A stretch of 16,047 nt of DNA from Tolypothrix sp. NIES-4075 (GCF_002218085.1 NZ_BDUC01000003.1:956206-972252); one strand, 5' to 3'; counted from the stretch's first letter, positions 8,968-16,047 are shown. The notes: a model not told the origin generated them from the sequence alone. Translations and numbers: made by a program.

Positions 8968-9513
8968 TTACTGCGATTGATATGGTGAATCTACAAAAGT
9001 GAGAAGTTGAAGTTGATTATTTTCCCATTTATAGTAATATTTACCAATTCCCTTTTGTCCATCACTACCCCCTGCTTGACCGATAATTATTAATAGCCTG
9101 CTATTAGCTTTGTAGTGCAACCCACCGTCAGGTCTTGGAGGAGTGTATCCAGCACCGCGTTGATCGTGATAGCCGTGCAGTTGTGGAGGCAAATATATTT
9201 TACCAGTCTTTAAATCGACTATCCCCGCACTGCCGACACCACCCATTGCCCGATCTAGATAAGCGATCGCATAGTGTCCGGCAAAATTTGTGCCTTTTTT
9301 AATACCTTCTCTTAATTGAGGTGCGTAATCTTGTTCTTCTTGGGTGTTGACAACAAGAGCAGCAGGCTTACCCTTATATACTGGATTTGCCGGATAATTC
9401 TGATATTGTTGTTGTGGCGCTGCCAAAACTGATAAAGTCGGAGCGACTACACCCAAACCGATGATGGTAGTCAAAGCGGCAATACTCAAGCTACGTTGTA
9501 ACATTTTCGGCAA
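8968..9513 (-). CDS. Secreted hypothetical protein
   Basis: 181-aa ORF with a clear signal peptide (MPKMLQRSLSIAALTTIIGLGVVAPTLSVLAAPQ). No recognised catalytic motifs. Confidence 0.7.
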   Translation of the reverse strand: MPKMLQRSLSIAALTTIIGLGVVAPTLSVLAAPQQQYQNYPANPVYKGKPAALVVNTQEEQDYAPQLREGIKKGTNFAGHYAIAYLDRAMGGVGSAGIVDLKTGKIYLPPQLHGYHDQRGAGYTPPRPDGGLHYKANSRLLIIIGQAGGSDGQKGIGKYYYKWENNQLQLLTFVDSPYQSQ

Positions 9514-9627
9514 AATTTATTAGTAATTTAGTGATATGGATAAACTACAAGCTTGAGAGTATAAATTCCCAGCAACAATAATAATTACTACAATAAAAGC
9601 ACACATCTGACTTCTGGAGTGCTGACA

Positions 9628-10203
9628 GTGGGCTTATTTGATGATTTGAGTCGGTTTCTCGAAAACCGTTTAGAGGAATTTCTGCGAAATAATCCGCATT
9701 TAGAGTTAGAAGCGCTGTTAGAACAACTGCGCGAACAAGAGGGAGACACGTTAAAGTTGATTGCAGATTTACAAGTACAGGAAAAGCGATCGCAAGAAGA
9801 TATTCTCTCCACCGCTCAAGAAATCCAAAGATGGCATATCCGCGTTCAAAAAGCGCAATCCGCTAACAGACAGGATTTGGTCGCAGCAGCACAAGAACGA
9901 GAAGCAGCTTTGTTGCGCGAAGGAAATCAGCGCTGGGGACAAATGCAAGGCTTGAAAGAACGCATTACTCAATCTAAAGAATTACTGCGAAAAATACAAG
10001 TACGCCGTCAAGAAGTGCAAACCAAAGCTGCTGAAGCACAGACAGTCCGTACTAAAGCTCAAACTCAGCAGCGCTTTGAAACAAATGGTTGGTCGAATAA
10101 AGCTAGTAGTTACTCTAATACGTTTGACGACTTAGAAGAAAAGTTTTTGCGCTGGGAAACTCAAGATGAGTTGGAACAAATGAAACGGAATATGGGGAAA
10201 TAA
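9628..10203 (+). CDS. Coiled-coil protein resembling the cyanobacterial TIGR04376 family
   Basis: The N-terminus (M)GLFDDLSRFLENRLEEFLRNNPHLELEALLEQLREQE matches my recollection of this conserved cyanobacterial family. The rest is Q/E/R-rich coiled coil. Two in-frame GTG starts exist, at 9619 and 9628. GGAG at 9616-9619 favours 9628, but the start is uncertain. Confidence 0.7.
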   Translation: MGLFDDLSRFLENRLEEFLRNNPHLELEALLEQLREQEGDTLKLIADLQVQEKRSQEDILSTAQEIQRWHIRVQKAQSANRQDLVAAAQEREAALLREGNQRWGQMQGLKERITQSKELLRKIQVRRQEVQTKAAEAQTVRTKAQTQQRFETNGWSNKASSYSNTFDDLEEKFLRWETQDELEQMKRNMGK

Positions 10204-10321
10204 ATTGTGATGGGGAGGTGGAGGGGATGGGGATTATCGGATCGAGACTGAAGTTCTTAGTACAAAGATGTTTTATTATGGGTAATTAAACGGACATAAT
10301 ATTACTTATTAAGGCTTCTGA

Positions 10322-11890
10322 GTGGCTCGTACCCCCACATTAACTTTTGATCGCGGCACATTAATTTTACATCCACCAGCGCGGGGCAAAGGTTGGATGG
10401 ATTACGCTACGTGGGATGATAGAGTAGAAAAATTCCGCATTCCGGCGATTCAATATCGACTTTTAGTAGAAGCGCTACAAGCGGAAGAGACTAATTTTAT
10501 CGATGAAGCGAAGGCATTTCATCCGGTAGAGTTGGCTGCGAGTATGGAAATGGAACCCTATCCCCATCAAAGTGAGGCATTAGCAGCTTGGAAACTGGCA
10601 GGAAGACAGGGGGTAGTGGTGCTGCCCACAGCGGCTGGAAAGACTTATCTGGCGCAAATGGCGATGCAAGCAACACCGCGCACGACGCTGATTGTGGTGC
10701 CTACTTTAGATTTGATGCATCAGTGGTATGCACATTTGATGGCAGCGTTTCCTGATGCTGAGGTGGGGTTGTTGGGGGGTGGATCGCGAGATAAAACTCC
10801 GATACTGGTTGCGACTTACGACAGTGCGGCAATTCACGCAGAAAGTTTGGGGAACAAGTATGCTTTGGTGATTTTTGATGAGTGTCATCATTTGCCAACT
10901 GATTTTAATCGGGTGATTGCGGAATATGCGATCGCACCCTATCGACTCGGACTGTCTGCAACACCGGAACGCACTGATGGCAAACACGCTGATTTAAATA
11001 TCCTCATTGGTAAAGAAGTATATCGCAAACGCGCTGAAGATTTGGCGGGGAATGCGTTAGCAGAACATCAAGTTGTGCAAATTAAGGTGAAGCTATCGCA
11101 AGTTGAGCGAGAAAGATACAATCAATTAATTCAAACTCGCAATGATTTTTTGAAGCAATCAAAGATTTCTTTGGGTAGTTTGAAAGGTTGGCAAAACTTT
11201 GTGCAAATGAGTGCGCGATCGCCTGCTGGACGTCGAGCTATGTTAGCACACCGTCAAGCGAAAGAAATCGCTTTGGGTACAGATGGAAAGTTGCGAATTC
11301 TCACGAATTTACTTGCGGAACATTATCCAGAAAGAATTTTGATTTTTACGGCTGATAATGCGACTGTTTACAGGATTTCTCAAGAGTTGTTAATTCCGGC
11401 AATTACTCATCAAACTCCTGTGAAAGAACGCCATGAAATATTAACCAAATTTCGGGAGGGGGAGTATAAAAGTTTGGTTGCTTCTCATGTGTTGAATGAA
11501 GGTGTTGATGTGCCGGCGGCAAGTATTGCGATTATTTTATCGGGTACTGGTTCGGCGAGGGAATATATTCAACGTTTGGGGAGGGTTTTAAGGAAGGGTA
11601 ATATCGCAAATAAGCAGGCGATTTTGTATGAGGTGGTGGCTGAGGATACGAGTGAGGAGAATACTTCGGCAAGGAGGAGGGGGGAGAGGAGTAACGAACC
11701 GCCAAGGCGCCAAGAACGCCAAGAGAGGAAGGATAAGAGAGGGAATTTGCATGTTGTTTATGGAAGTGGTCAGAAAAGTGATTATAAGGCTGCTGAACAG
11801 ATGGAAATTAAGTATTCTGTTGAGAAGAAAGCTAAAACATCCAAGGAAAAGAATGTAGATTCAAAAGACTCATCAGAACCAATAAACTAA
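10322..11890 (+). CDS. XPB/Ssl2(ERCC3)-type SF2 DNA helicase with basic low-complexity C-terminal tail
   Basis: GTG start. N-terminal XPB-like damage-recognition-type domain (LTFDRGTLILHPP...WDDRVEKFRIPAIQY). Helicase motifs: I LPTAAGKT, II FDECHH, III SATPERTDGKH (equivalent to the XPB RED-motif position), V/VI VLNEGVDVP and QRLGRVLR. The last ~75 aa (RRRGERSNEPPRRQERQERKDKRG...) are a lineage-specific tail containing CGCCAAG-type short repeats. Confidence 0.88.
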   Translation: MARTPTLTFDRGTLILHPPARGKGWMDYATWDDRVEKFRIPAIQYRLLVEALQAEETNFIDEAKAFHPVELAASMEMEPYPHQSEALAAWKLAGRQGVVVLPTAAGKTYLAQMAMQATPRTTLIVVPTLDLMHQWYAHLMAAFPDAEVGLLGGGSRDKTPILVATYDSAAIHAESLGNKYALVIFDECHHLPTDFNRVIAEYAIAPYRLGLSATPERTDGKHADLNILIGKEVYRKRAEDLAGNALAEHQVVQIKVKLSQVERERYNQLIQTRNDFLKQSKISLGSLKGWQNFVQMSARSPAGRRAMLAHRQAKEIALGTDGKLRILTNLLAEHYPERILIFTADNATVYRISQELLIPAITHQTPVKERHEILTKFREGEYKSLVASHVLNEGVDVPAASIAIILSGTGSAREYIQRLGRVLRKGNIANKQAILYEVVAEDTSEENTSARRRGERSNEPPRRQERQERKDKRGNLHVVYGSGQKSDYKAAEQMEIKYSVEKKAKTSKEKNVDSKDSSEPIN

Positions 11891-11907
11891 TAACTAACCA
11901 CTATCCA

Positions 11908-11975
11908 TGTACAGACGCGATTAATCGCGTCTCTACTTCTAACTTTGTACAGACGCGATTAATCGCGTCTCTACT
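11908..11975. repeat. Two direct copies (period 38 nt) of a 30-nt palindromic small dispersed repeat
   Basis: TGTACAGACGCGATTAATCGCGTCTCTACT occurs at 11908-11937 and again, identical, at 11946-11975. Each contains the perfect 20-nt palindrome AGACGCGATTAATCGCGTCT. The pair lies in the 107-nt spacer between the helicase and nuclease genes. Confidence 0.9.
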
Positions 11976-11997
11976 AACCAACAACTAACAAATTCAA

Positions 11998-13212
11998 ATG
12001 TTACCAACAGATTTACTGATTCATCGTCAAAATGGGGAGGAGATAATTCCGAAGAGACTTAAGCTTGATAAGAATACTTTGGAGTTAGCTGTTGAGTTAA
12101 TTGATTGTTTTCGAGAAGCGGTAGGAAAGACGCAAGGTGTTCTTGAGCGTCAGTTGTTGGAGTTGGAGGGTGATTCTACTGATTATAAGGTGAAGCGGGG
12201 ATTGGCTTATATTTTAAAAGGCAGTTTTTGCACTTTTGAGGTGGTGAGTCCTTTGGAACCTCAAATGTTACGAGAAAGGGTGTTTGCTTTGTCTGCAATG
12301 TCTGTTTCTAGTCCGCAATCAACGCAGGCTACACTTAGCAAGATTGCTGATGAATTAAGTCATGAATTTGAGCGGGAAGTTTTACCGCAACAAGTTCATG
12401 ATGGGTTATATGCTGATTTAAGTGAAAATAAGATTTTTATTAGTTTTGATGCACCTACTCCTGAAGATTTGTTACATCGATATAATTTATCTCAAGTGCA
12501 GGGTGTGTTTTATCGGGCAAGTCAACTTACTTTAAATGCTCATCGTAATGTTCCGGGTGAATATAAGCTTTTGTTTCGCTATTTGAAGCTGTTTCAATTG
12601 ATGGCTTATATTGAGGGTGATGCTGACCACGGCTTTACAATTACGATTGATGGTCCGACGAGTTTGTTTAATCCTAGCACGCGATATGGTTTGGCGATCG
12701 CTAAACTTATTCCCGCTTTACTTCATGTCACCAGATGGAGTCTTTCTTCTATTCTCCAAACTCGCGATTTTTATACTAATAGTTGGAAAACTGGACGTTT
12801 CACTCTCAATTCTGAATGCGGTTTGGTGTCTCATTATCCACCTGGCAAGCCTTACGATAGTATGTTGGAAGCGTCTTTTGCTGATAAGTGGGATTCGTTA
12901 AAAAGTGATTGGGTGTTGGAGAGAGAAGTTGATTTAGTTCCGATTCCTGGTAGTGTGATGATTCCTGACTTTCGTTTGGTACATCCTGATGGACGCACGT
13001 TTTTATTAGAAATTGTCGGTTATTGGCGTCCAGAATATTTACAAAAGAAGTTTTCCCAAGTGCGACGTGCGGAACGTGATGACTTAATTTTGGCAATTTC
13101 TGAAAGATTAAATTTGGAAAAAGCGGGTGTGAAATTAAATGATGTCCCCGCTAGAATTATTTGGTTTAAAGATAAGTTATTGCCGAAGGCAGTATTAGCA
13201 GCGTTGGAGTAA
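11998..13212 (+). CDS. Bax1-like (DUF790 family) endonuclease, partner of XPB helicase
   Basis: 404 aa located directly downstream of the XPB-type helicase. The N-terminus (LPTDLLIHRQNGEEIIPKRLKLD) and overall layout match my recollection of DUF790/Bax1. The C-terminal region carries a PD-(D/E)xK-like signature (MIPDFRLVHPDGRTFLLEIVGYWRPEYLQKK). Confidence 0.8.
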   Translation: MLPTDLLIHRQNGEEIIPKRLKLDKNTLELAVELIDCFREAVGKTQGVLERQLLELEGDSTDYKVKRGLAYILKGSFCTFEVVSPLEPQMLRERVFALSAMSVSSPQSTQATLSKIADELSHEFEREVLPQQVHDGLYADLSENKIFISFDAPTPEDLLHRYNLSQVQGVFYRASQLTLNAHRNVPGEYKLLFRYLKLFQLMAYIEGDADHGFTITIDGPTSLFNPSTRYGLAIAKLIPALLHVTRWSLSSILQTRDFYTNSWKTGRFTLNSECGLVSHYPPGKPYDSMLEASFADKWDSLKSDWVLEREVDLVPIPGSVMIPDFRLVHPDGRTFLLEIVGYWRPEYLQKKFSQVRRAERDDLILAISERLNLEKAGVKLNDVPARIIWFKDKLLPKAVLAALE

Positions 13213-13216
13213 TTAT

Positions 13217-13459
13217 ATGAAAACTATTCAAACAATTGCCACGGTTACAGCAGATGGGAAAATTACCTTGCAGTTACCTGCTGATATTCCCCCAGGTGAA
13301 CATCAAGTGGTGGTGATAATTGATGAAAAGCCTTTGGTAGAGAAAGTACAGACGAAGGAAAAGCGAATGCCGCTGAACTTTCCGGTAGACAGTTACGGTT
13401 CTTTTCCTGAAAATCTTTCTTTGAGACGTGAGGATATGTATGATGACTGGGGACGCTAA
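13217..13459 (+). CDS. VapB-like antitoxin, copy 1 (its cognate PIN gene is truncated)
   Basis: 80 aa starting 4 nt after the nuclease stop. The N-terminal beta-rich putative DNA-binding segment (IATVTADGKITLQLPADIPPGEHQVVVIID) resembles AbrB/SpoVT-type antitoxins. It overlaps the start of a PIN reading frame. It is a paralog of 13577..13816. Confidence 0.65.
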   Translation: MKTIQTIATVTADGKITLQLPADIPPGEHQVVVIIDEKPLVEKVQTKEKRMPLNFPVDSYGSFPENLSLRREDMYDDWGR

Positions 13460-13580
13460 CTCTATTTTTCTGGACACAAATATCCTCGTTTATGCTAATG
13501 TTCCTGAATATCCTTTACACTTGGTTGCTATAAACGCAATTCAAAGTTATGAACAAAGCAGTATTGGAGTAATTATATGA
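13440..13580 (+). pseudogene. Truncated PIN-domain (vapC) remnant
   Basis: 46-codon ORF MMTGDANSIFLDTNILVYANVPEYPLHLVAINAIQSYEQSSIGVII*, below the ORF-track size cut-off. Its first ~37 aa parallel the intact PIN protein at 13797 (MMTGDANSVFLDTNILVYASQTQFPFHQAAMQAIQSF). Homology stops at about 13549, where sequence resembling the nuclease 3' end begins. Confidence 0.75.
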
Positions 13581-13816
13581 AAGCTATTGAAACAATTGCG
13601 ACGGTAACAAGTGATGGGAAAATTACGTTGCAGTTATCGGCTGATATTCCCCCTGGTGAACATCAAGTGGTGGTGATAATTGATGAAAAATTGTCAGAAA
13701 AGGAAGTAATTAAGAAAAAGCGTCCTCCGTTGGATTTTCCTGTACATAATTGCGGTCTTATGCCCGAAAATCTTTCTTTAAGACGTGAGGATATGTATGA
13801 TGACTGGGGACGCTAA
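13577..13816 (+). CDS. VapB-like antitoxin, copy 2
   Basis: 79 aa, paralog of copy 1. It overlaps the downstream PIN gene by 20 nt, which is typical type II TA coupling. Confidence 0.7.
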   Translation: MKAIETIATVTSDGKITLQLSADIPPGEHQVVVIIDEKLSEKEVIKKKRPPLDFPVHNCGLMPENLSLRREDMYDDWGR

Positions 13817-14249
13817 CTCTGTTTTTCTGGACACAAATATTTTGGTATATGCTAGTCAAACTCAATTTCCGTTTCACCAAGCTGCTATGCAGGCTATCCA
13901 AAGTTTTTATGATGCGGGGGCTGAGTTGTGGATTAGCCGACAAGTATTGCGCGAATATCTAGCTACTCTCACTCGTCCTCAACAATTTACCGAGCCAATG
14001 CCGATTGAAATATTGGTTCAGGATGTCCGCTATTTCCAAAATCGCTTTCGAGTAGCTGAAGATAATTTGCTGGTAACAGAAAGACTTTTATCTTTAATGT
14101 CAGAAATTCCCAGTGGTGGCAGGCAAGTACATGATGCTAATATCGTCGCCACGATGTTAGTTTACCATATTCCGCAGTTATTAACTCACAACACTGGAGA
14201 TTTTGCCAGATTTTCTACATTAATTACTGTATCGCCATTGCAAGCGTAG
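13797..14249 (+). CDS. vapC: PIN-domain ribonuclease toxin VapC
   Basis: PIN acidic signature in order: FLDTNILVYA (Asp), SRQVLREYL (Glu), VHDANIVATM (Asp), THNTGDF. ATG codons at 13797/13800 are preferred over the upstream GTG at 13785 listed in the track. Confidence 0.85.
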   Translation: MMTGDANSVFLDTNILVYASQTQFPFHQAAMQAIQSFYDAGAELWISRQVLREYLATLTRPQQFTEPMPIEILVQDVRYFQNRFRVAEDNLLVTERLLSLMSEIPSGGRQVHDANIVATMLVYHIPQLLTHNTGDFARFSTLITVSPLQA

Positions 14250-14251
14250 TC

Positions 14252-14284
14252 AGAACCGCGACTTTTTGAAGAAATCGGGGTTCT
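14252..14284 (+). terminator. Imperfect hairpin after vapC (possible terminator or dispersed palindrome)
   Basis: AGAACCGCGACTTTT (14252-14266) pairs with GAAATCGGGGTTCT (14271-14284), with two mismatches and one G-U wobble. It is followed by TGTTTCC, a weak U-tract. Confidence 0.35.
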
Positions 14285-14352
14285 TGTTTCCGAAATATAC
14301 TGAGATAAAGAGGTAGGTACAATAAAATATATTTGGGATTCTGGGTTAATTT

Positions 14353-14730
14353 ATGGAACCTGCTACACTAACAGCAGCTGCGATCGCTACTTTACTCATC
14401 ACCAAGGCTTTTGAAAAAACTGGTGAAATTATCGGCGAAAAGACTTGGCAGGAAGGCGAGAAGTTGCTAGAACTGCTCAAGGAAAAAGAACCCAGCACCG
14501 CAAATGATATACAATTAGCCCAGCAGCAAGCTCTAGATTACGGTCAAGCTCATTTAATTGGACAGCAAGTTGAGCAAGCTGCAAACAAACATCCGGAAAT
14601 TCGGCAAGCTGTCGCAACTGTGGCAAAGGAAGCCGAACCTAAATTAACAACATCTATTATTGAAAATTGGCAAGGTATCAACGTTAAAGGCGGAAATAAT
14701 ACTATTTCTGGCAATACCTTCAATTTTTGA
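14353..14730 (+). CDS. Small helical protein with hydrophobic N-terminal helix and N/G-rich C-terminal tail; putative effector-type N-terminal module of the downstream NLR-like protein
   Basis: 125-aa ORF. It has an N-terminal hydrophobic helix (MEPATLTAAAIATLLITKAF), then a charged helical region, then the tail IIENWQGINVKGGNNTISGNTFNF. It ends at TGA 14728-14730, which is in the same frame as the NB-ARC ORF that follows. Confidence 0.6.
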   Translation: MEPATLTAAAIATLLITKAFEKTGEIIGEKTWQEGEKLLELLKEKEPSTANDIQLAQQQALDYGQAHLIGQQVEQAANKHPEIRQAVATVAKEAEPKLTTSIIENWQGINVKGGNNTISGNTFNF

Positions 14731-16047
14731 CTACAGCCGTCGGAACGGGAACCGACAAAGTTAAATCCCCTCAACAAAATACCAGATAATTTGCCCTGGA
14801 GTGGGGCTACGGAGTTCGTCGGGCGTGAAAAAGAACTCGCACGCCTCCACCAATTATTGCAGGAAAATGATTCTGTTGCGATCGCTGCCGTTGTGGGTAT
14901 GGGTGGTGTCGGTAAAACTGAACTAGCGTTGCAATATGCACTTTTACACCGGGAATTTTACTCTGGGGGGATTTGTTGGTGTGGGGTGAACAGCGGTGAT
15001 GTCGGTTTCCAGGTGGTGCAATTTGCTCGCACTCACCTTGATTTAAACCCGCCCACTGATTTTAATTTAATCGACCAGGTAAAATACTGTTGGCGGCACT
15101 GGCGTGGTGGTAATGTTTTGTTAGTGCTGGATAATGTCAATAAATATAAAGAAATTGAGCCTTATTTACCGCCGCCATCCTCCCGGTTTAAGGTGTTGCT
15201 GACTTCCAGAAAGCACTTCGGGCAGATTAAGAAGTTATCATTAAATGTATTGCAACCACAAGCCGCGTTGGAATTGTTGGGAAATCTCGTTGGGGAAGAA
15301 CGGGTTAATGTAGAGACGCGAAATTTCGCGTCTCTACCCGAAAGATTGGGATATTTACCTTTAGGAATAGAGTTGGTAGGGCGCTATCTCGCCAGAAAAC
15401 AAGATTTATCCCTGGCAGAAATGTTACAAAGGTTGGAGAAAAAGCGACTCAAAGAACGTTCTTTGTCTCAACCAGAAGAAGACATGACAGCACAGCGGGG
15501 TGTGGAAGCAGCCTTTGAGTTAAGTTGGGAAGAATTAACTGACAACGATAAGCAACTCGCCTGTTTGCTGAGTTTATTTGCTGCTGCACCGATACCTTGG
15601 CAGTTGGTAGAATCTTGTTTACCCGATGTGGATGCAGACGAGTTAGAAGAAAGTCGGGACGACAAGCTGCTGACTTTGCATTTACTCCAGCGCAAGCAAA
15701 AGGGAATTTATCAATTGCATCCACTGCTGCGAGAATTCTTTCAAGCGAAGTTAGAACCCCAACTTTTTCTGGGAAGTTGGGGAAATCTTCAATATGCTCT
15801 TGCCACACGCATGATAGCAGTTGCCAAGTATATTCCTCATGACGCCACCCTTGAGAAAATTACCGCCGTCGCCCCCGCCATACCTCATTTAGCAGAAGTA
15901 GCGAAGAATCTGATTCAATATGTTAGCGATGAGGATGTATTCTGGGCTTTCTACGGTAATGCTGCATTTTACAATGGTCAAGGGTTGTATGACAAGGCAG
16001 AACCTTGGTTTAAGCAGTGTCTCGAAGTCACAAAAAAACGCTTGCCA
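14731..16047 (+). CDS. NB-ARC/TPR STAND NTPase (NLR-like), 3'-partial; no ATG start, contiguous in frame with 14353..14730 across one TGA
   Basis: My own translation of frame 1 is open for 439 codons from 14731 to the window end; this ORF is not in the supplied track. Motifs: FVGREKELARLHQLL, Walker A GMGGVGKTELA, Walker B-like VLLVLDNV, LLTSR, GYLPLGIELVGRYLA, then TPR-like FYNGQGLYDKAEPWFKQCLEV. The only plausible independent start is TTG at 14791. The first in-frame ATG (14899) lies inside the P-loop. Confidence 0.85.
15310..15337. repeat. Perfect 28-nt palindromic small dispersed repeat embedded in frame in the NB-ARC coding region
   Basis: GTAGAGACGCGAAATTTCGCGTCTCTAC is its own reverse complement. 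It belongs to the same family as the 11908/11946 copies, sharing GTA-AGACGCGA...TCGCGTCTCTAC. It encodes VETRNFASLP just upstream of the GYLPLGIEL motif. Confidence 0.9.

What the first reader, a model, noticed from the sequence alone, without database searches (positions are those of the whole stretch)
10322..13212. Bacterial XPB-Bax1 (SF2 helicase plus DUF790 nuclease) pair in a cyanobacterium that should already have UvrABC repair
The helicase carries the XPB-specific N-terminal domain and motifs I-VI. The next gene has the DUF790/Bax1 layout with a C-terminal PD-(D/E)xK-like signature (IPDF...EIVGYW).

In archaea, XPB and Bax1 form a characterised helicase-nuclease machine. The role of bacterial homologs is, to my knowledge, not established.

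Two details stand out:
- The position equivalent to the XPB RED motif reads R-T-D (SATPERTDGKH), compared by eye with archaeal FEREDGRH.
- The helicase has a ~75-aa highly basic, repeat-derived C-terminal tail.

The pair is followed directly by toxin-antitoxin and NLR-like genes. That raises the possibility of a nucleic-acid-targeting defence or genome-surveillance role rather than classical excision repair.
Basis: partly seen in the sequence, partly recalled or inferred. Interest (0 to 1): 0.65.

Follow-up and report, generated by a model that had tools for sequence, protein, structure and literature searches.

The report
Cyanobacterial XPB–Bax1 helicase–nuclease gene pair
The two genes really are a bacterial copy of the archaeal XPB helicase and Bax1 nuclease, but they evolve like core housekeeping genes across cyanobacteria, so they look like genome maintenance rather than the anti-phage system suggested by their neighbours.

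Summary
Window 10322-11890 encodes a short, archaeal-type XPB helicase. It has the DRD, motifs I-VI and a full-length thumb, and matches A. fulgidus XPB at E 5e-99. Window 11998-13212 encodes a full-length DUF790/Bax1 nuclease (Pfam 1.7e-158). Its AF2 model matches only Bax1 structures, and the catalytic D/E residues and XPB-interface residues are conserved.

R-T-D replaces RED. This is a clade trait: all bacterial short XPBs sampled have R-[T/S/A]-D, and S. tokodaii XPB has RDD.

The defence reading is not supported:
- Both genes occur across many cyanobacterial orders at 70-88% identity.
- They are unlinked on separate contigs in many Leptolyngbyales.
- They are absent from phages and cyanobacterial plasmids.
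- Their neighbours are heterogeneous outside Nostocales.
- Their dS and dN/dS match the housekeeping gene mnmG, whereas the adjacent VapC and NB-ARC genes diverge much faster.

The pairing of cyanobacterial DUF790 with an SF2 helicase was noted bioinformatically in 2005. The in vivo function is still untested.

New details:
- The XPB tail is cyanobacteria-specific and carries conserved short motifs.
- The neighbouring NLR-like gene has a conserved in-frame TGA.

The parts
10322..11890 (+). XPB-type SF2 helicase gene (522 aa, GTG start), short archaeal architecture DRD-HD1-ThM-HD2 plus a C-terminal extension
   Evidence: The N-terminus MARTPTL is conserved in orthologues.
10340..10510 (+). Damage-recognition domain (aa 7-63)
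   Evidence: Pfam XPB_DRD 1e-24, full profile 1-57.
10625..10645 (+). Helicase motif I / Walker A, PTAAGKT (aa 102-108)
   Evidence: Alignment to AfXPB. Present in 161/166 distinct homologues.
10877..10891 (+). Helicase motif II, DECHH (aa 186-190)
   Evidence: 165/166.
10970..10978 (+). R-T-D at the position of the XPB RED motif (aa 217-219), directly after motif III (SAT)
   Evidence: Aligns to AfXPB RED and StXPB2 RDD. SATPERTDG occurs in 77/77 Nostocales orthologues. R-[T/S/A]-D occurs in all but one of 166 bacterial short XPBs.
11057..11281 (+). Thumb-like (ThM) insertion, archaeal length (about aa 246-320). W290 (11189-11191) sits at the position of the StXPB wedge residue F278.
   Evidence: Ungapped alignment to AfXPB and StXPB2 through the ThM. 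Residue roles are taken from PMC7672443. W290 is invariant in A6/A7.
11684..11887 (+). Cyanobacteria-specific C-terminal extension (aa 455-522): a basic, repeat-variable linker followed by conserved short motifs and a variable end
   Evidence: Lies beyond the end of the AfXPB alignment. Tails compared. dN/dS is about 0.8 against 0.08 for the core. AF2 gave no confident structure.
11700..11724 (+). 9-nt tandem repeat (CGCCAAGAA x2.9) encoding PRRQERQER in the tail linker
11744..11818 (+). Conserved tail motif NLHVVYGSGQKSDYKAAEQMEIKYS (aa 475-499). L476, Y480 and A491 are invariant; A490 and E492 are nearly invariant across cyanobacterial orders.
11891..11997 (.). 107-nt spacer between the two genes. 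It holds two copies (11913-11932, 11951-11970) of a 20-nt perfect palindrome that fold into a -39.9 kcal/mol hairpin. In Nostoc the genes instead overlap by 71 nt.
11998..13212 (+). DUF790/Bax1 nuclease gene (404 aa): N-terminal XPB-binding domain, central Cas2-like domain and PD-(D/E)xK-type nuclease domain. It lacks the AfBax1-type C-terminal dimerisation domain.
12409..12486 (+). N-terminal-domain residues matching the AfBax1 XPB interface / N-terminal site: Y138, D140 (invariant), Y162, N163
   Evidence: Alignment to AfBax1 Y131, D133, Y155, N156. Conservation. Residue roles from PMC7293015.
12856..13011 (+). Nuclease active-site residues: D287/E291 (DSMLE), P323-D324 (IPDF) and E338 (EIVGYW)
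   Evidence: Align to AfBax1 E274/275, D305 and E318. Invariant in A2 and A4.
13217..14249 (+). Context, not part of the pair: two 79%-identical RelN/VapB-like antitoxin genes (13217-13459, 13577-13816) and one VapC PIN toxin gene (13785-14249). The first antitoxin starts 4 nt after the Bax1 stop.
   Evidence: Present downstream in about half of Nostocales species.
14353..16047 (+). Context, not part of the pair: NLR-like gene. A 125-codon N-terminal ORF is followed by an in-frame TGA (14728-14730), then an NB-ARC ATPase with TPR that runs off the window.

Best explanation
The two genes are the cyanobacterial orthologues of the archaeal XPB-Bax1 helicase-nuclease machine.

Shown by sequence and fold:
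- The helicase is a short XPB with DRD, two RecA domains, a full-length thumb and an R-T-D loop.
- The nuclease is a Bax1 with conserved acidic catalytic residues and conserved residues of the XPB-binding N-terminal domain.

Inferred from the archaeal structures:
- The Bax1 N-terminal domain docks on the thumb and HD2 of XPB.
- XPB uses ATP to clamp and translocate on duplex DNA at a ds/ss junction or small bubble. The thumb wedge (W290) and the R-x-D loop hold the unpaired strand.
- The Bax1 nuclease domain cuts one arm near the junction.

Inferred from comparative genomics:
- In cyanobacteria this is a vertically inherited, strongly constrained chromosomal function. It most likely processes bubble, fork or lesion-containing DNA as genome maintenance alongside UvrABC.
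- It is probably not a mobile anti-phage system.
- The TA and NLR genes next to it in Nostocales are accessory genes sitting in a variable flank.
For: Identity of the pair.

Conserved catalytic and interface residues: with residue roles from PMC7293015 and PMC7672443.

Breadth and conservation:
- XPB is adjacent to DUF790 in 79/80 Nostocales species.
- Both genes occur in Leptolyngbyales, Oscillatoriales, Chroococcidiopsis, Acaryochloris and others at 70-88% identity.
- In many Leptolyngbyales the two genes lie on different contigs of the same genome. Examples are Phormidium tanganyikae, Leptolyngbya ERB_1_1, Myxacorys californica and UHCC 1019.

Evolutionary rates against Scytonema hofmanni:
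- Bax1: dN 0.015, dS 0.22.
- XPB core: dN 0.016, dS 0.20.
- mnmG: dN 0.014, dS 0.25.
- VapC: dN 0.18, dS 0.74.
- NB-ARC: dN 0.12, dS 0.56.

Lack of defence signals:
- No phage hit.
- Plasmid hits are only Deinococcus and haloarchaeal megaplasmids, 40/42 non-mobilizable.
- DUF790 has no PADLOC hit.
- Neighbours are heterogeneous.
- Pairs in other bacteria sit beside rimM/rpsP, metabolic genes or ydjM.
Against: - No experiment exists for any bacterial XPB-Bax1 pair in the literature I could search.
- Even in archaea the in vivo role is unclear. T. kodakarensis XPB deletions are only slightly UV sensitive. Halobacterium depends entirely on UvrABC for dark UV repair despite carrying rad25 genes.
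- No conserved LexA-like box lies upstream: 16/174 upstream regions have a match with at most one mismatch, about the roughly 12% rate I estimated by hand from the consensus degeneracy, not by a shuffle test.
- In Nostocales an antitoxin gene starts 4-15 nt after the DUF790 stop in 49/80 species.
- In one distant clade the pair borders McrBC/GmrSD islands, and in one genome a Type ISP-like methyltransferase gene.
- The middle acidic residue of RED is missing, so the DNA-junction chemistry may differ from the archaeal model.
Confidence: 0.6

Rival explanations
1. The pair is a nucleic-acid-targeting defence module. XPB loads on foreign or aberrant DNA and Bax1 cleaves it, possibly together with the downstream VapBC and NLR-like genes.
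For: - Antitoxin, VapC and NB-ARC genes follow DUF790 in 49, 38 and 31 of 80 Nostocales species, with a 4-15 nt gap to the antitoxin.
- In a clade at 42% identity the pair abuts McrBC plus GmrSD or AAA_15. In one genome a 1120-aa N6_Mtase/Type_ISP_C gene lies 18 nt downstream.
- The helicase core resembles PbeA / Dnd-restriction helicases.
- The 2005 survey did not exclude a 'selfish character'.
Against: - The association is confined to one order and was not detected in 80 other cyanobacterial species.
- Neighbour families are heterogeneous.
- The genes are unlinked but retained in many genomes.
- Their rates match mnmG, unlike the TA/NLR neighbours.
- There is no PADLOC model for DUF790.
- There are no phage hits and no mobilizable cyanobacterial plasmid hits.
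- A sister genome keeps the pair but lacks the methyltransferase.
Confidence: 0.12
2. The pair acts at the replisome or at stalled forks rather than in excision repair. The cyanobacteria-specific XPB tail motifs ([QNK]-L-x-[LIV]-[VL]-[PY] ... [KR]-A-A-E) dock it on a partner such as the beta sliding clamp.
For: - The tail is absent from the Deinococcus, Latescibacteria-type and archaeal XPBs examined.
- It is present in all 161 distinct cyanobacterial tails. The second motif occurs in 161/161, and both motifs occur in order in 152/161.
- L476, Y480 and A491 are invariant across orders.
- The first motif loosely resembles the bacterial clamp-binding hexapeptide QLxLxL (own knowledge, not tested).
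Against: - The resemblance to a clamp-binding motif is by eye only.
- The regular expressions used are permissive.
- AF2 gave no confident tail structure.
- Overall tail dN/dS is about 0.8.
- No partner has been identified.
Confidence: 0.12
3. The pair is a recently acquired archaeal island or a decaying relic with no current function in this genome.
For: - The helicase is far closer to archaeal short XPBs (5e-99) than to eukaryotic XPBs (about 1e-21).
- Related pairs sit on megaplasmids in Deinococcus and haloarchaea.
Against: - Both reading frames are intact.
- dN/dS is 0.04-0.10 over hundreds of codons.
- Orthologues at 70-88% identity occur across cyanobacterial orders.
- GC content is similar to the flanks.
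Confidence: 0.02

Closest known systems
Archaeal XPB-Bax1 helicase-nuclease complex (A. fulgidus 6P66; S. tokodaii 6P4F/6P4O/6P4W)
   Same: - Same two-gene arrangement.
- Same XPB architecture: DRD, HD1, long thumb, HD2.
- Same Bax1 domains: N-terminal XPB-binding domain, Cas2-like central domain, nuclease domain.
- Conserved catalytic D/E residues and conserved interface residues.
- Sequence E-values are 5e-99 for XPB and 3.6e-33 for Bax1. Foldseek E is 3e-28.
   Different: - RED reads R-T-D (A. fulgidus has RED, S. tokodaii has RDD).
- W replaces the F wedge of the thumb.
- H310 replaces the thumb Trp (StXPB W298).
- Bax1 lacks the AfBax1-type C-terminal dimerisation domain, which is also absent in many archaeal Bax1 proteins.
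- XPB carries a 68-aa cyanobacteria-specific tail.
- The host is a bacterium; cyanobacteria in general also have UvrABC (own knowledge, not tested here).
Bacterial 'long' XPB (Mycobacterium tuberculosis Rv0861c) and eukaryotic XPB/Rad25 of TFIIH
   Same: SF2 helicase core with the XPB-specific C-terminal helicase domain. M. tuberculosis XPB has 3'-5' helicase/translocase chemistry.
   Different: - Those proteins have a 120-130-aa N-terminal domain instead of the short DRD, a much shortened thumb, a strict RED motif, and no Bax1 partner.
- Similarity to eukaryotic XPB is only about 1e-21 and is split into two stretches.
DUF790 + SF2 helicase pairs of Deinococcus megaplasmids and other bacteria (annotated 'DUF790 family protein' / 'DEAD/DEAH box helicase')
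   Same: - Closest non-cyanobacterial relatives: 46-50% identity for DUF790 and 56-63% for XPB.
- Adjacent or overlapping genes.
- The one Deinococcus XPB read here (L081) has R-S-D at the RED position.
   Different: - No cyanobacterial-type C-terminal tail.
- Carried on secondary replicons.
- Flanked by metabolic genes in the one Deinococcus locus inspected.
Helicase-nuclease restriction/defence modules (PbeA / Dnd-type restriction helicase, Type ISP enzymes, NucS/EndoMS-like nucleases)
   Same: An SF2 helicase is combined with a PD-(D/E)xK-type nuclease. The helicase core scores 1.6e-54 against PbeA and 3.5e-33 against TIGR04095.
   Different: - The matches cover only the generic helicase core and fall far below family cut-offs (115 bits against a cut-off of 600).
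- DUF790 has no PADLOC match.
- No methyltransferase or modification gene lies in the window.
- NucS/EndoMS appears only at Foldseek E about 2e-3 to 2e-2.

Membership tests
XPB helicase, short archaeal type | N-terminal damage-recognition domain (DRD) | tested here: met
   Pfam XPB_DRD 1e-24, profile 1-57 of 57. Aligned to AfXPB from residue 7.
XPB helicase, short archaeal type | Two RecA-like domains with SF2 motifs I, II (DExH), III and VI, and the ERCC3/RAD25 C-terminal helicase signature | tested here: met
XPB helicase, short archaeal type | RED motif (Arg-Glu-Asp) after motif III | tested here: not met
   The motif reads R-T-D. R217 and D219 are invariant, and the middle residue is T/S/A in bacterial short XPBs. 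The characterised StXPB2 has RDD, and its paper still calls it the RED motif. The strict tripeptide therefore fails, but the R-x-D loop is kept.
XPB helicase, short archaeal type | Long thumb-like (ThM) insertion in HD2 with an aromatic wedge | tested here: met
   Ungapped alignment through the ThM of AfXPB and StXPB2. W290 sits at the position of StXPB F278.
XPB helicase, short archaeal type | DNA-dependent ATPase / translocase activity | not testable with these tools
   Requires biochemistry.
Bax1 / DUF790 nuclease | Full-length match to the DUF790 profile | tested here: met
   PF05626 1.7e-158, 527.9 bits against a cut-off of 28.8, profile 1-387 of 387. The NCBIfam Bax1 equivalog models score 168 and 143 bits, below their cut-off of 500, so the protein is a family member but not one of the two archaeal equivalogs those models define.
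Bax1 / DUF790 nuclease | Three acidic residues of the nuclease domain (AfBax1 E275, D305, E318) | tested here: met
   E291 (with D287), D324 and E338 are aligned and invariant.
Bax1 / DUF790 nuclease | Bax1 multi-domain fold (N-terminal helical bundles, Cas2-like domain, nuclease domain) | tested here: met
   The AF2 model has pLDDT 88.4. The top 8 Foldseek hits are all Bax1 chains, E 3e-28 to 5e-25, TM 0.50-0.58. The next hit has E 2e-3.
Bax1 / DUF790 nuclease | Encoded next to, and physically bound to, XPB | tested here: inconclusive
   Adjacency is met here and in 79/80 Nostocales species, but the genes are unlinked in many other cyanobacteria. Interface residues Y138, D140, Y162 and N163 are conserved. 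Physical binding cannot be tested here.
Known anti-phage defence systems (PADLOC-DB 2.0) | Component proteins match a defence-system model | tested here: not met
   DUF790 has no hit. The helicase matches only the generic core of PbeA, type IV REase and Cas3 models.
Known anti-phage defence systems (PADLOC-DB 2.0) | Recurrent co-localisation with defence genes in independent lineages | tested here: not met
   TA/NLR neighbours occur only within Nostocales. Other neighbours are heterogeneous. There are two anecdotal defence-island contexts in one distant clade. The sampling is immediate neighbours only, not a statistical island score.
Known anti-phage defence systems (PADLOC-DB 2.0) | Accessory-gene behaviour: mobility and fast turnover | tested here: not met
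   Rates equal those of mnmG. No phage hit. Plasmid hits are only non-mobilizable megaplasmids of other phyla.

The most novel reading that the evidence does not exclude
Bacterial XPB-Bax1 is an immune or genome-surveillance effector that recognises and cuts foreign or aberrant DNA structures. In Nostocales it would be wired to the downstream VapBC and NLR-like genes, and in other phyla to Type ISP-like methyltransferases and McrBC islands. Its core-gene-like conservation would then reflect an ancient, fixed immune function rather than repair.
Probability: 0.1. Interest if true: 0.7.

Novelty: new member of a known kind. Interest (0 to 1): 0.3.

Why it matters
XPB-Bax1 is a structurally well-described machine whose biological role is unsettled even in archaea. 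No bacterial pair has been characterised in the literature I could search.

This analysis shows that both genes are kept, under housekeeping-level constraint, in many filamentous cyanobacteria, a group that in general also has UvrABC (own knowledge). That makes genetically tractable Nostoc strains a good place to ask what XPB-Bax1 does that UvrABC does not. It also argues against filing the pair as a defence system on the strength of its neighbours.

The clade-wide R-[T/S/A]-D loop and the cyanobacteria-specific tail motifs give concrete mutational handles.

As a finding in this window it is an ordinary, already annotated family member, so the surprise value is modest.

Tried and rejected
- LexA/SOS control. 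A scan for the Anabaena-type LexA box RGTACNNNDGTWCB, allowing one mismatch, in 250 nt upstream of 174 XPB genes gave 16 hits. That is about the roughly 12% rate I estimated by hand from the consensus degeneracy, not by a shuffle test, so there is no support.
- Sigma-70 promoter and intrinsic terminator scan of 9500-14800. Counts were no higher than in shuffles, so it was uninformative.
- Distant-homologue locus search with alignments A1 and A2. It was replaced by single-protein scans with a Leptolyngbya DUF790 and a Phormidesmis XPB.
- Look-up of the window's own DUF790. It returned only a 1.4-kb contig with no context.
- AF2 model of XPB with a 31-sequence cyanobacterial alignment. Mean pLDDT was 51.9 and the tail 23-33, which is unusable for judging whether the tail docks on the core.
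- Recent-transfer or relic reading. Rejected on dN/dS and breadth of distribution.
- PbeA/Dnd-restriction membership. Rejected because only the helicase core matches, far below the cut-off.
- Rouillon & White 2010 and Roth et al. 2009 could not be read because they are not held.


Full report
**What is there**

The window is from a Tolypothrix/Scytonema/Hassallia-like member of the Nostocales; the best DUF790 relatives are 97-98% identical.

ORF 10322-11890 (+, 522 aa, GTG start) and ORF 11998-13212 (+, 404 aa) sit exactly where the finding says.

The first ORF is an XPB helicase:
- It matches Pfam XPB_DRD (1e-24), ResIII, Helicase_C and ERCC3_RAD25_C.
- Residues 7-454 align almost without gaps to the solved XPBs of Archaeoglobus fulgidus (5e-99) and Sulfurisphaera tokodaii (3e-98).
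- Eukaryotic XPBs match only at about 1e-21 and in two pieces.
- It is therefore the short, archaeal-type XPB with DRD, HD1, a full-length thumb and HD2. It is not the long type described for Mycobacterium.

The second ORF is a Bax1 nuclease:
- It matches the whole DUF790 profile at 1.7e-158.
- It matches AfBax1 at 3.6e-33 and Pyrococcus Bax1 at 5.5e-29.
- Its AF2 model (pLDDT 88.4) finds only Bax1 chains at E <= 5e-25. The next hit is at 2e-3.
- The acidic residues that define the Bax1 nuclease site (AfBax1 D305, E318 and the E274/275 position) correspond to D324, E338 and E291 and are invariant in diverse homologues.
- The AfBax1 residues at the XPB interface (Y131, D133, Y155, N156) correspond to the conserved Y138, D140, Y162 and N163.

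*R-T-D.* The tripeptide at the RED position is real.
- SATPERTDG is identical in 77 of 77 Nostocales orthologues.
- Among 166 distinct bacterial short XPBs gathered here, all but one show R-[T/S/A]-D. The set is mainly cyanobacteria plus one Deinococcus and a few Latescibacteria-like genomes.
- The characterised S. tokodaii enzyme has R-D-D. In its DNA complex R205 contacts a backbone phosphate, and D206 and D207 contact unpaired bases.
- So the flanking Arg and Asp are kept, and the middle acidic residue is replaced by a small residue as a clade trait. The strict RED tripeptide is not met, but this is not a peculiarity of this gene.

*The tail.* Residues 455-522 extend beyond the archaeal core.
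- The tail has a basic linker with a 9-nt x2.9 repeat.
- The linker differs between species by various short repeats.
- Its overall dN/dS is about 0.8, against 0.08 for the core.
- It is not just low-complexity sequence. Every one of 161 distinct cyanobacterial tails carries a [KR]-A-A-E-like motif. In 152 of them this is preceded, 9-26 residues upstream, by a hydrophobic [QNK]-L-x-[LIV]-[VL] motif.
- L476, Y480 and A491 are invariant across orders.
- The Deinococcus, Latescibacteria-like and archaeal XPBs examined lack the tail.
- An AF2 model of XPB was too poor to say how the tail folds.

**Is it a defence system?**

There are two 79%-identical RelN/VapB-like antitoxins, a VapC PIN toxin and an NB-ARC/TPR gene.

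In 80 Nostocales species (one genome each):
- XPB is immediately upstream of DUF790 in 79.
- The antitoxin follows in 49, VapC in 38 and the NB-ARC gene in 31.
- The upstream context differs between the Tolypothrix group and Nostoc.

That recurrence lies within one order and can be inherited synteny. Where the TA pair is missing, the next three genes are a mixed bag of 156 Pfam families in 68 proteins. The downstream flank is therefore a variable region.

In 80 other cyanobacterial species (Leptolyngbyales, Oscillatoriales, Coleofasciculaceae and others):
- No homologue of the antitoxin, VapC or NB-ARC gene was detected near DUF790.
- The immediate neighbours span 177 Pfam families, none in more than 6 of 118 proteins.
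- PADLOC shows nothing consistent.
- In most of these species XPB is not within 8 kb of DUF790. The same genomes do carry XPB on other contigs at 72-85% identity.

A pair that stays conserved after being unlinked behaves like a core function, not a mobile cassette.

Further evidence against a mobile defence system:
- DUF790 has no PADLOC model match, and the helicase matches only generic helicase cores.
- There is no phage hit.
- Plasmid hits are limited to Deinococcus and haloarchaeal megaplasmids, 40 of 42 non-mobilizable.

The rate comparison is the clearest discriminator. Values against Scytonema hofmanni:

| Gene | dN | dS |
|---|---|---|
| Bax1 | 0.015 | 0.22 |
| XPB core | 0.016 | 0.20 |
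| mnmG (housekeeping, same window) | 0.014 | 0.25 |
| VapC | 0.18 | 0.74 |
| NB-ARC | 0.12 | 0.56 |

Bax1 and the XPB core match mnmG; the adjacent VapC and NB-ARC genes do not.

Other bacteria give mixed anecdotes:
- The pair sits beside rimM/rpsP, metabolic genes, ydjM or an AlkZ-like gene.
- In one clade it sits beside variable McrBC/GmrSD/AAA_15 genes, and in one genome beside a Type ISP-like methyltransferase that a sister genome lacks.

**Most likely mechanism**

By homology with the archaeal complexes:
- The Bax1 N-terminal domain binds the thumb and HD2 of XPB.
- XPB grips a ds/ss junction or small bubble with the thumb wedge (here W290) and the R-x-D loop, and moves along duplex DNA using ATP.
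- The Bax1 nuclease domain cuts an arm near the junction.

These steps are inferred, not shown.

The biological role is most likely genome maintenance on bubble, fork or lesion-containing DNA, in parallel with UvrABC. I put this at about 0.6.

It need not be classical UV excision repair:
- Halobacterium, which has both systems, depends entirely on UvrABC for dark UV repair.
- XPB deletions in Thermococcus are only slightly UV sensitive.
- I found no conserved LexA-type box upstream.

**Comparison with what is known, and novelty**

[quoted passage not shown] It noted that DUF790 usually lies next to COG1061/SSL2 helicases, and suggested repair or recombination without excluding a selfish character. 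A 2012 survey repeated the co-occurrence and placed Cyanobacteria with Deinococci.

A 2012 paper on M. tuberculosis XPB said no bacterial XPB-Bax1 complex had been identified. I found no later functional work.

This window therefore holds an ordinary member of a known but functionally untested bacterial branch of the XPB-Bax1 family.

What this analysis adds:
- Evidence of core-gene behaviour.
- The unlinking of the two genes in Leptolyngbyales.
- The clade-wide R-[T/S/A]-D loop.
- The conserved motifs in the cyanobacteria-specific tail.

**Seen in passing**

The NLR-like gene downstream is split by an in-frame TGA.
- A 125-codon N-terminal ORF ends at 14728-14730, and the NB-ARC frame continues at once in the same frame.
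- The same TGA, followed by CTA, CTG or CCA and never by a start codon, occurs in 20 other Nostocales loci.
- The peptide just after the stop is conserved, but the first possible in-frame start codon wanders between codons 20 and 36.
- This pattern fits programmed readthrough better than two separate genes, but it is untested.

The XPB-Bax1 spacer holds two copies of a 20-nt palindrome that form a very stable hairpin. In Nostoc the two genes overlap by 71 nt instead.

Noticed in passing
window 14353-16047 (TGA at 14728-14730); also L002, L003, L004, L006, L012, L022, L029, L032, L037, L043, L044, L053, L057-L060, L063, L065, L066, L077: The NLR-like gene is interrupted by a conserved in-frame TGA between a 125-192-codon N-terminal domain and the NB-ARC/TPR part. 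The stop is always TGA, followed by CTA, CTG or CCA. The peptide after it is conserved, but the first in-frame start codon varies (codon 20-36). Seven other species have a contiguous ORF with a different, stop-free N-terminus. This is a candidate for programmed UGA readthrough.
   Followed up: partly
window 11891-11997 (palindromes 11913-11932 and 11951-11970): Two direct copies of the perfect 20-nt palindrome AGACGCGATTAATCGCGTCT lie in the XPB-Bax1 spacer. Together they fold into a -39.9 kcal/mol hairpin (z -13.3) with no T-run after it. Single copies occur at unrelated places in a few Nostoc loci, so this looks like a small dispersed palindromic repeat inserted here.
   Followed up: partly
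window 11744-11818; XPB tails in L001-L246: The cyanobacteria-specific XPB tail carries conserved short motifs: [QNK]-L-x-[LIV]-[VL]-[PY], then [KR]-A-A-E 9-26 residues later. L476, Y480 and A491 are invariant across orders. The motifs are absent from the Deinococcus, Latescibacteria-like and archaeal XPBs examined. The first motif loosely resembles a beta-clamp-binding hexapeptide, which is an untested idea.
   Followed up: partly
window 13217-13459 and 13577-13816: Tandem duplicate antitoxin genes (79% identical proteins) but only one VapC toxin (13785-14249). The first antitoxin starts 4 nt after the Bax1 stop and has no toxin of its own.
   Followed up: partly
L011-L080 (Nostoc spp.), XPB stop relative to DUF790 start: In 63 of 78 Nostocales loci the XPB reading frame runs 71 nt (2 cases: 98 nt) into the DUF790 gene. 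Its variable end carries STRR-like repeat insertions (QNPKSKIQNPKSK, LVLSEVEVVEV). The Tolypothrix group instead has a 43-297 nt spacer.
   Followed up: partly
L083 9242-12604; L083 688-5588; L248 1-4451: In a DUF790 clade at 42% identity (MAGs with Latescibacteria-like flanks) the conserved XPB-DUF790 pair borders variable McrBC, GmrSD/HNH and AAA_15 genes. In one genome a 1120-aa N6_Mtase/Type_ISP_C gene lies 18 nt downstream, and the sister genome lacks it.
   Followed up: partly
L098 5793-8001 (Phormidesmis priestleyi) and L082 7010-7870 (Leptolyngbya boryana): In Phormidesmis three genes sit between XPB and DUF790: a 311-aa ORF on the opposite strand, a 136-aa ORF that looks to me like a nuclease inhibitor, and a 186-aa ORF. 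I did not scan the 311-aa and 136-aa ORFs against any library, so those calls are by eye, helped by the analogous position of an Endonuclease_NS gene in L. boryana. The 186-aa ORF was among the neighbours scanned, and Uma2 was hit by 5 of 118 neighbours. In L. boryana an Endonuclease_NS gene lies directly upstream of the solo DUF790.
   Followed up: no
L084 9233-10249; L250 7068-8132: Other single cases: a ydjM-family gene directly follows DUF790 in a Latescibacteria MAG (ydjM is SOS-regulated in E. coli, own knowledge). An AlkZ-like gene lies near a solo DUF790 in a metagenome contig.
   Followed up: no
window 9619-10203: The gene upstream of XPB is a TIGR04376-family protein (2e-84), related to a cyanobacterial 'hercynine metabolism' family. 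It is conserved upstream only in the Tolypothrix group.
   Followed up: no
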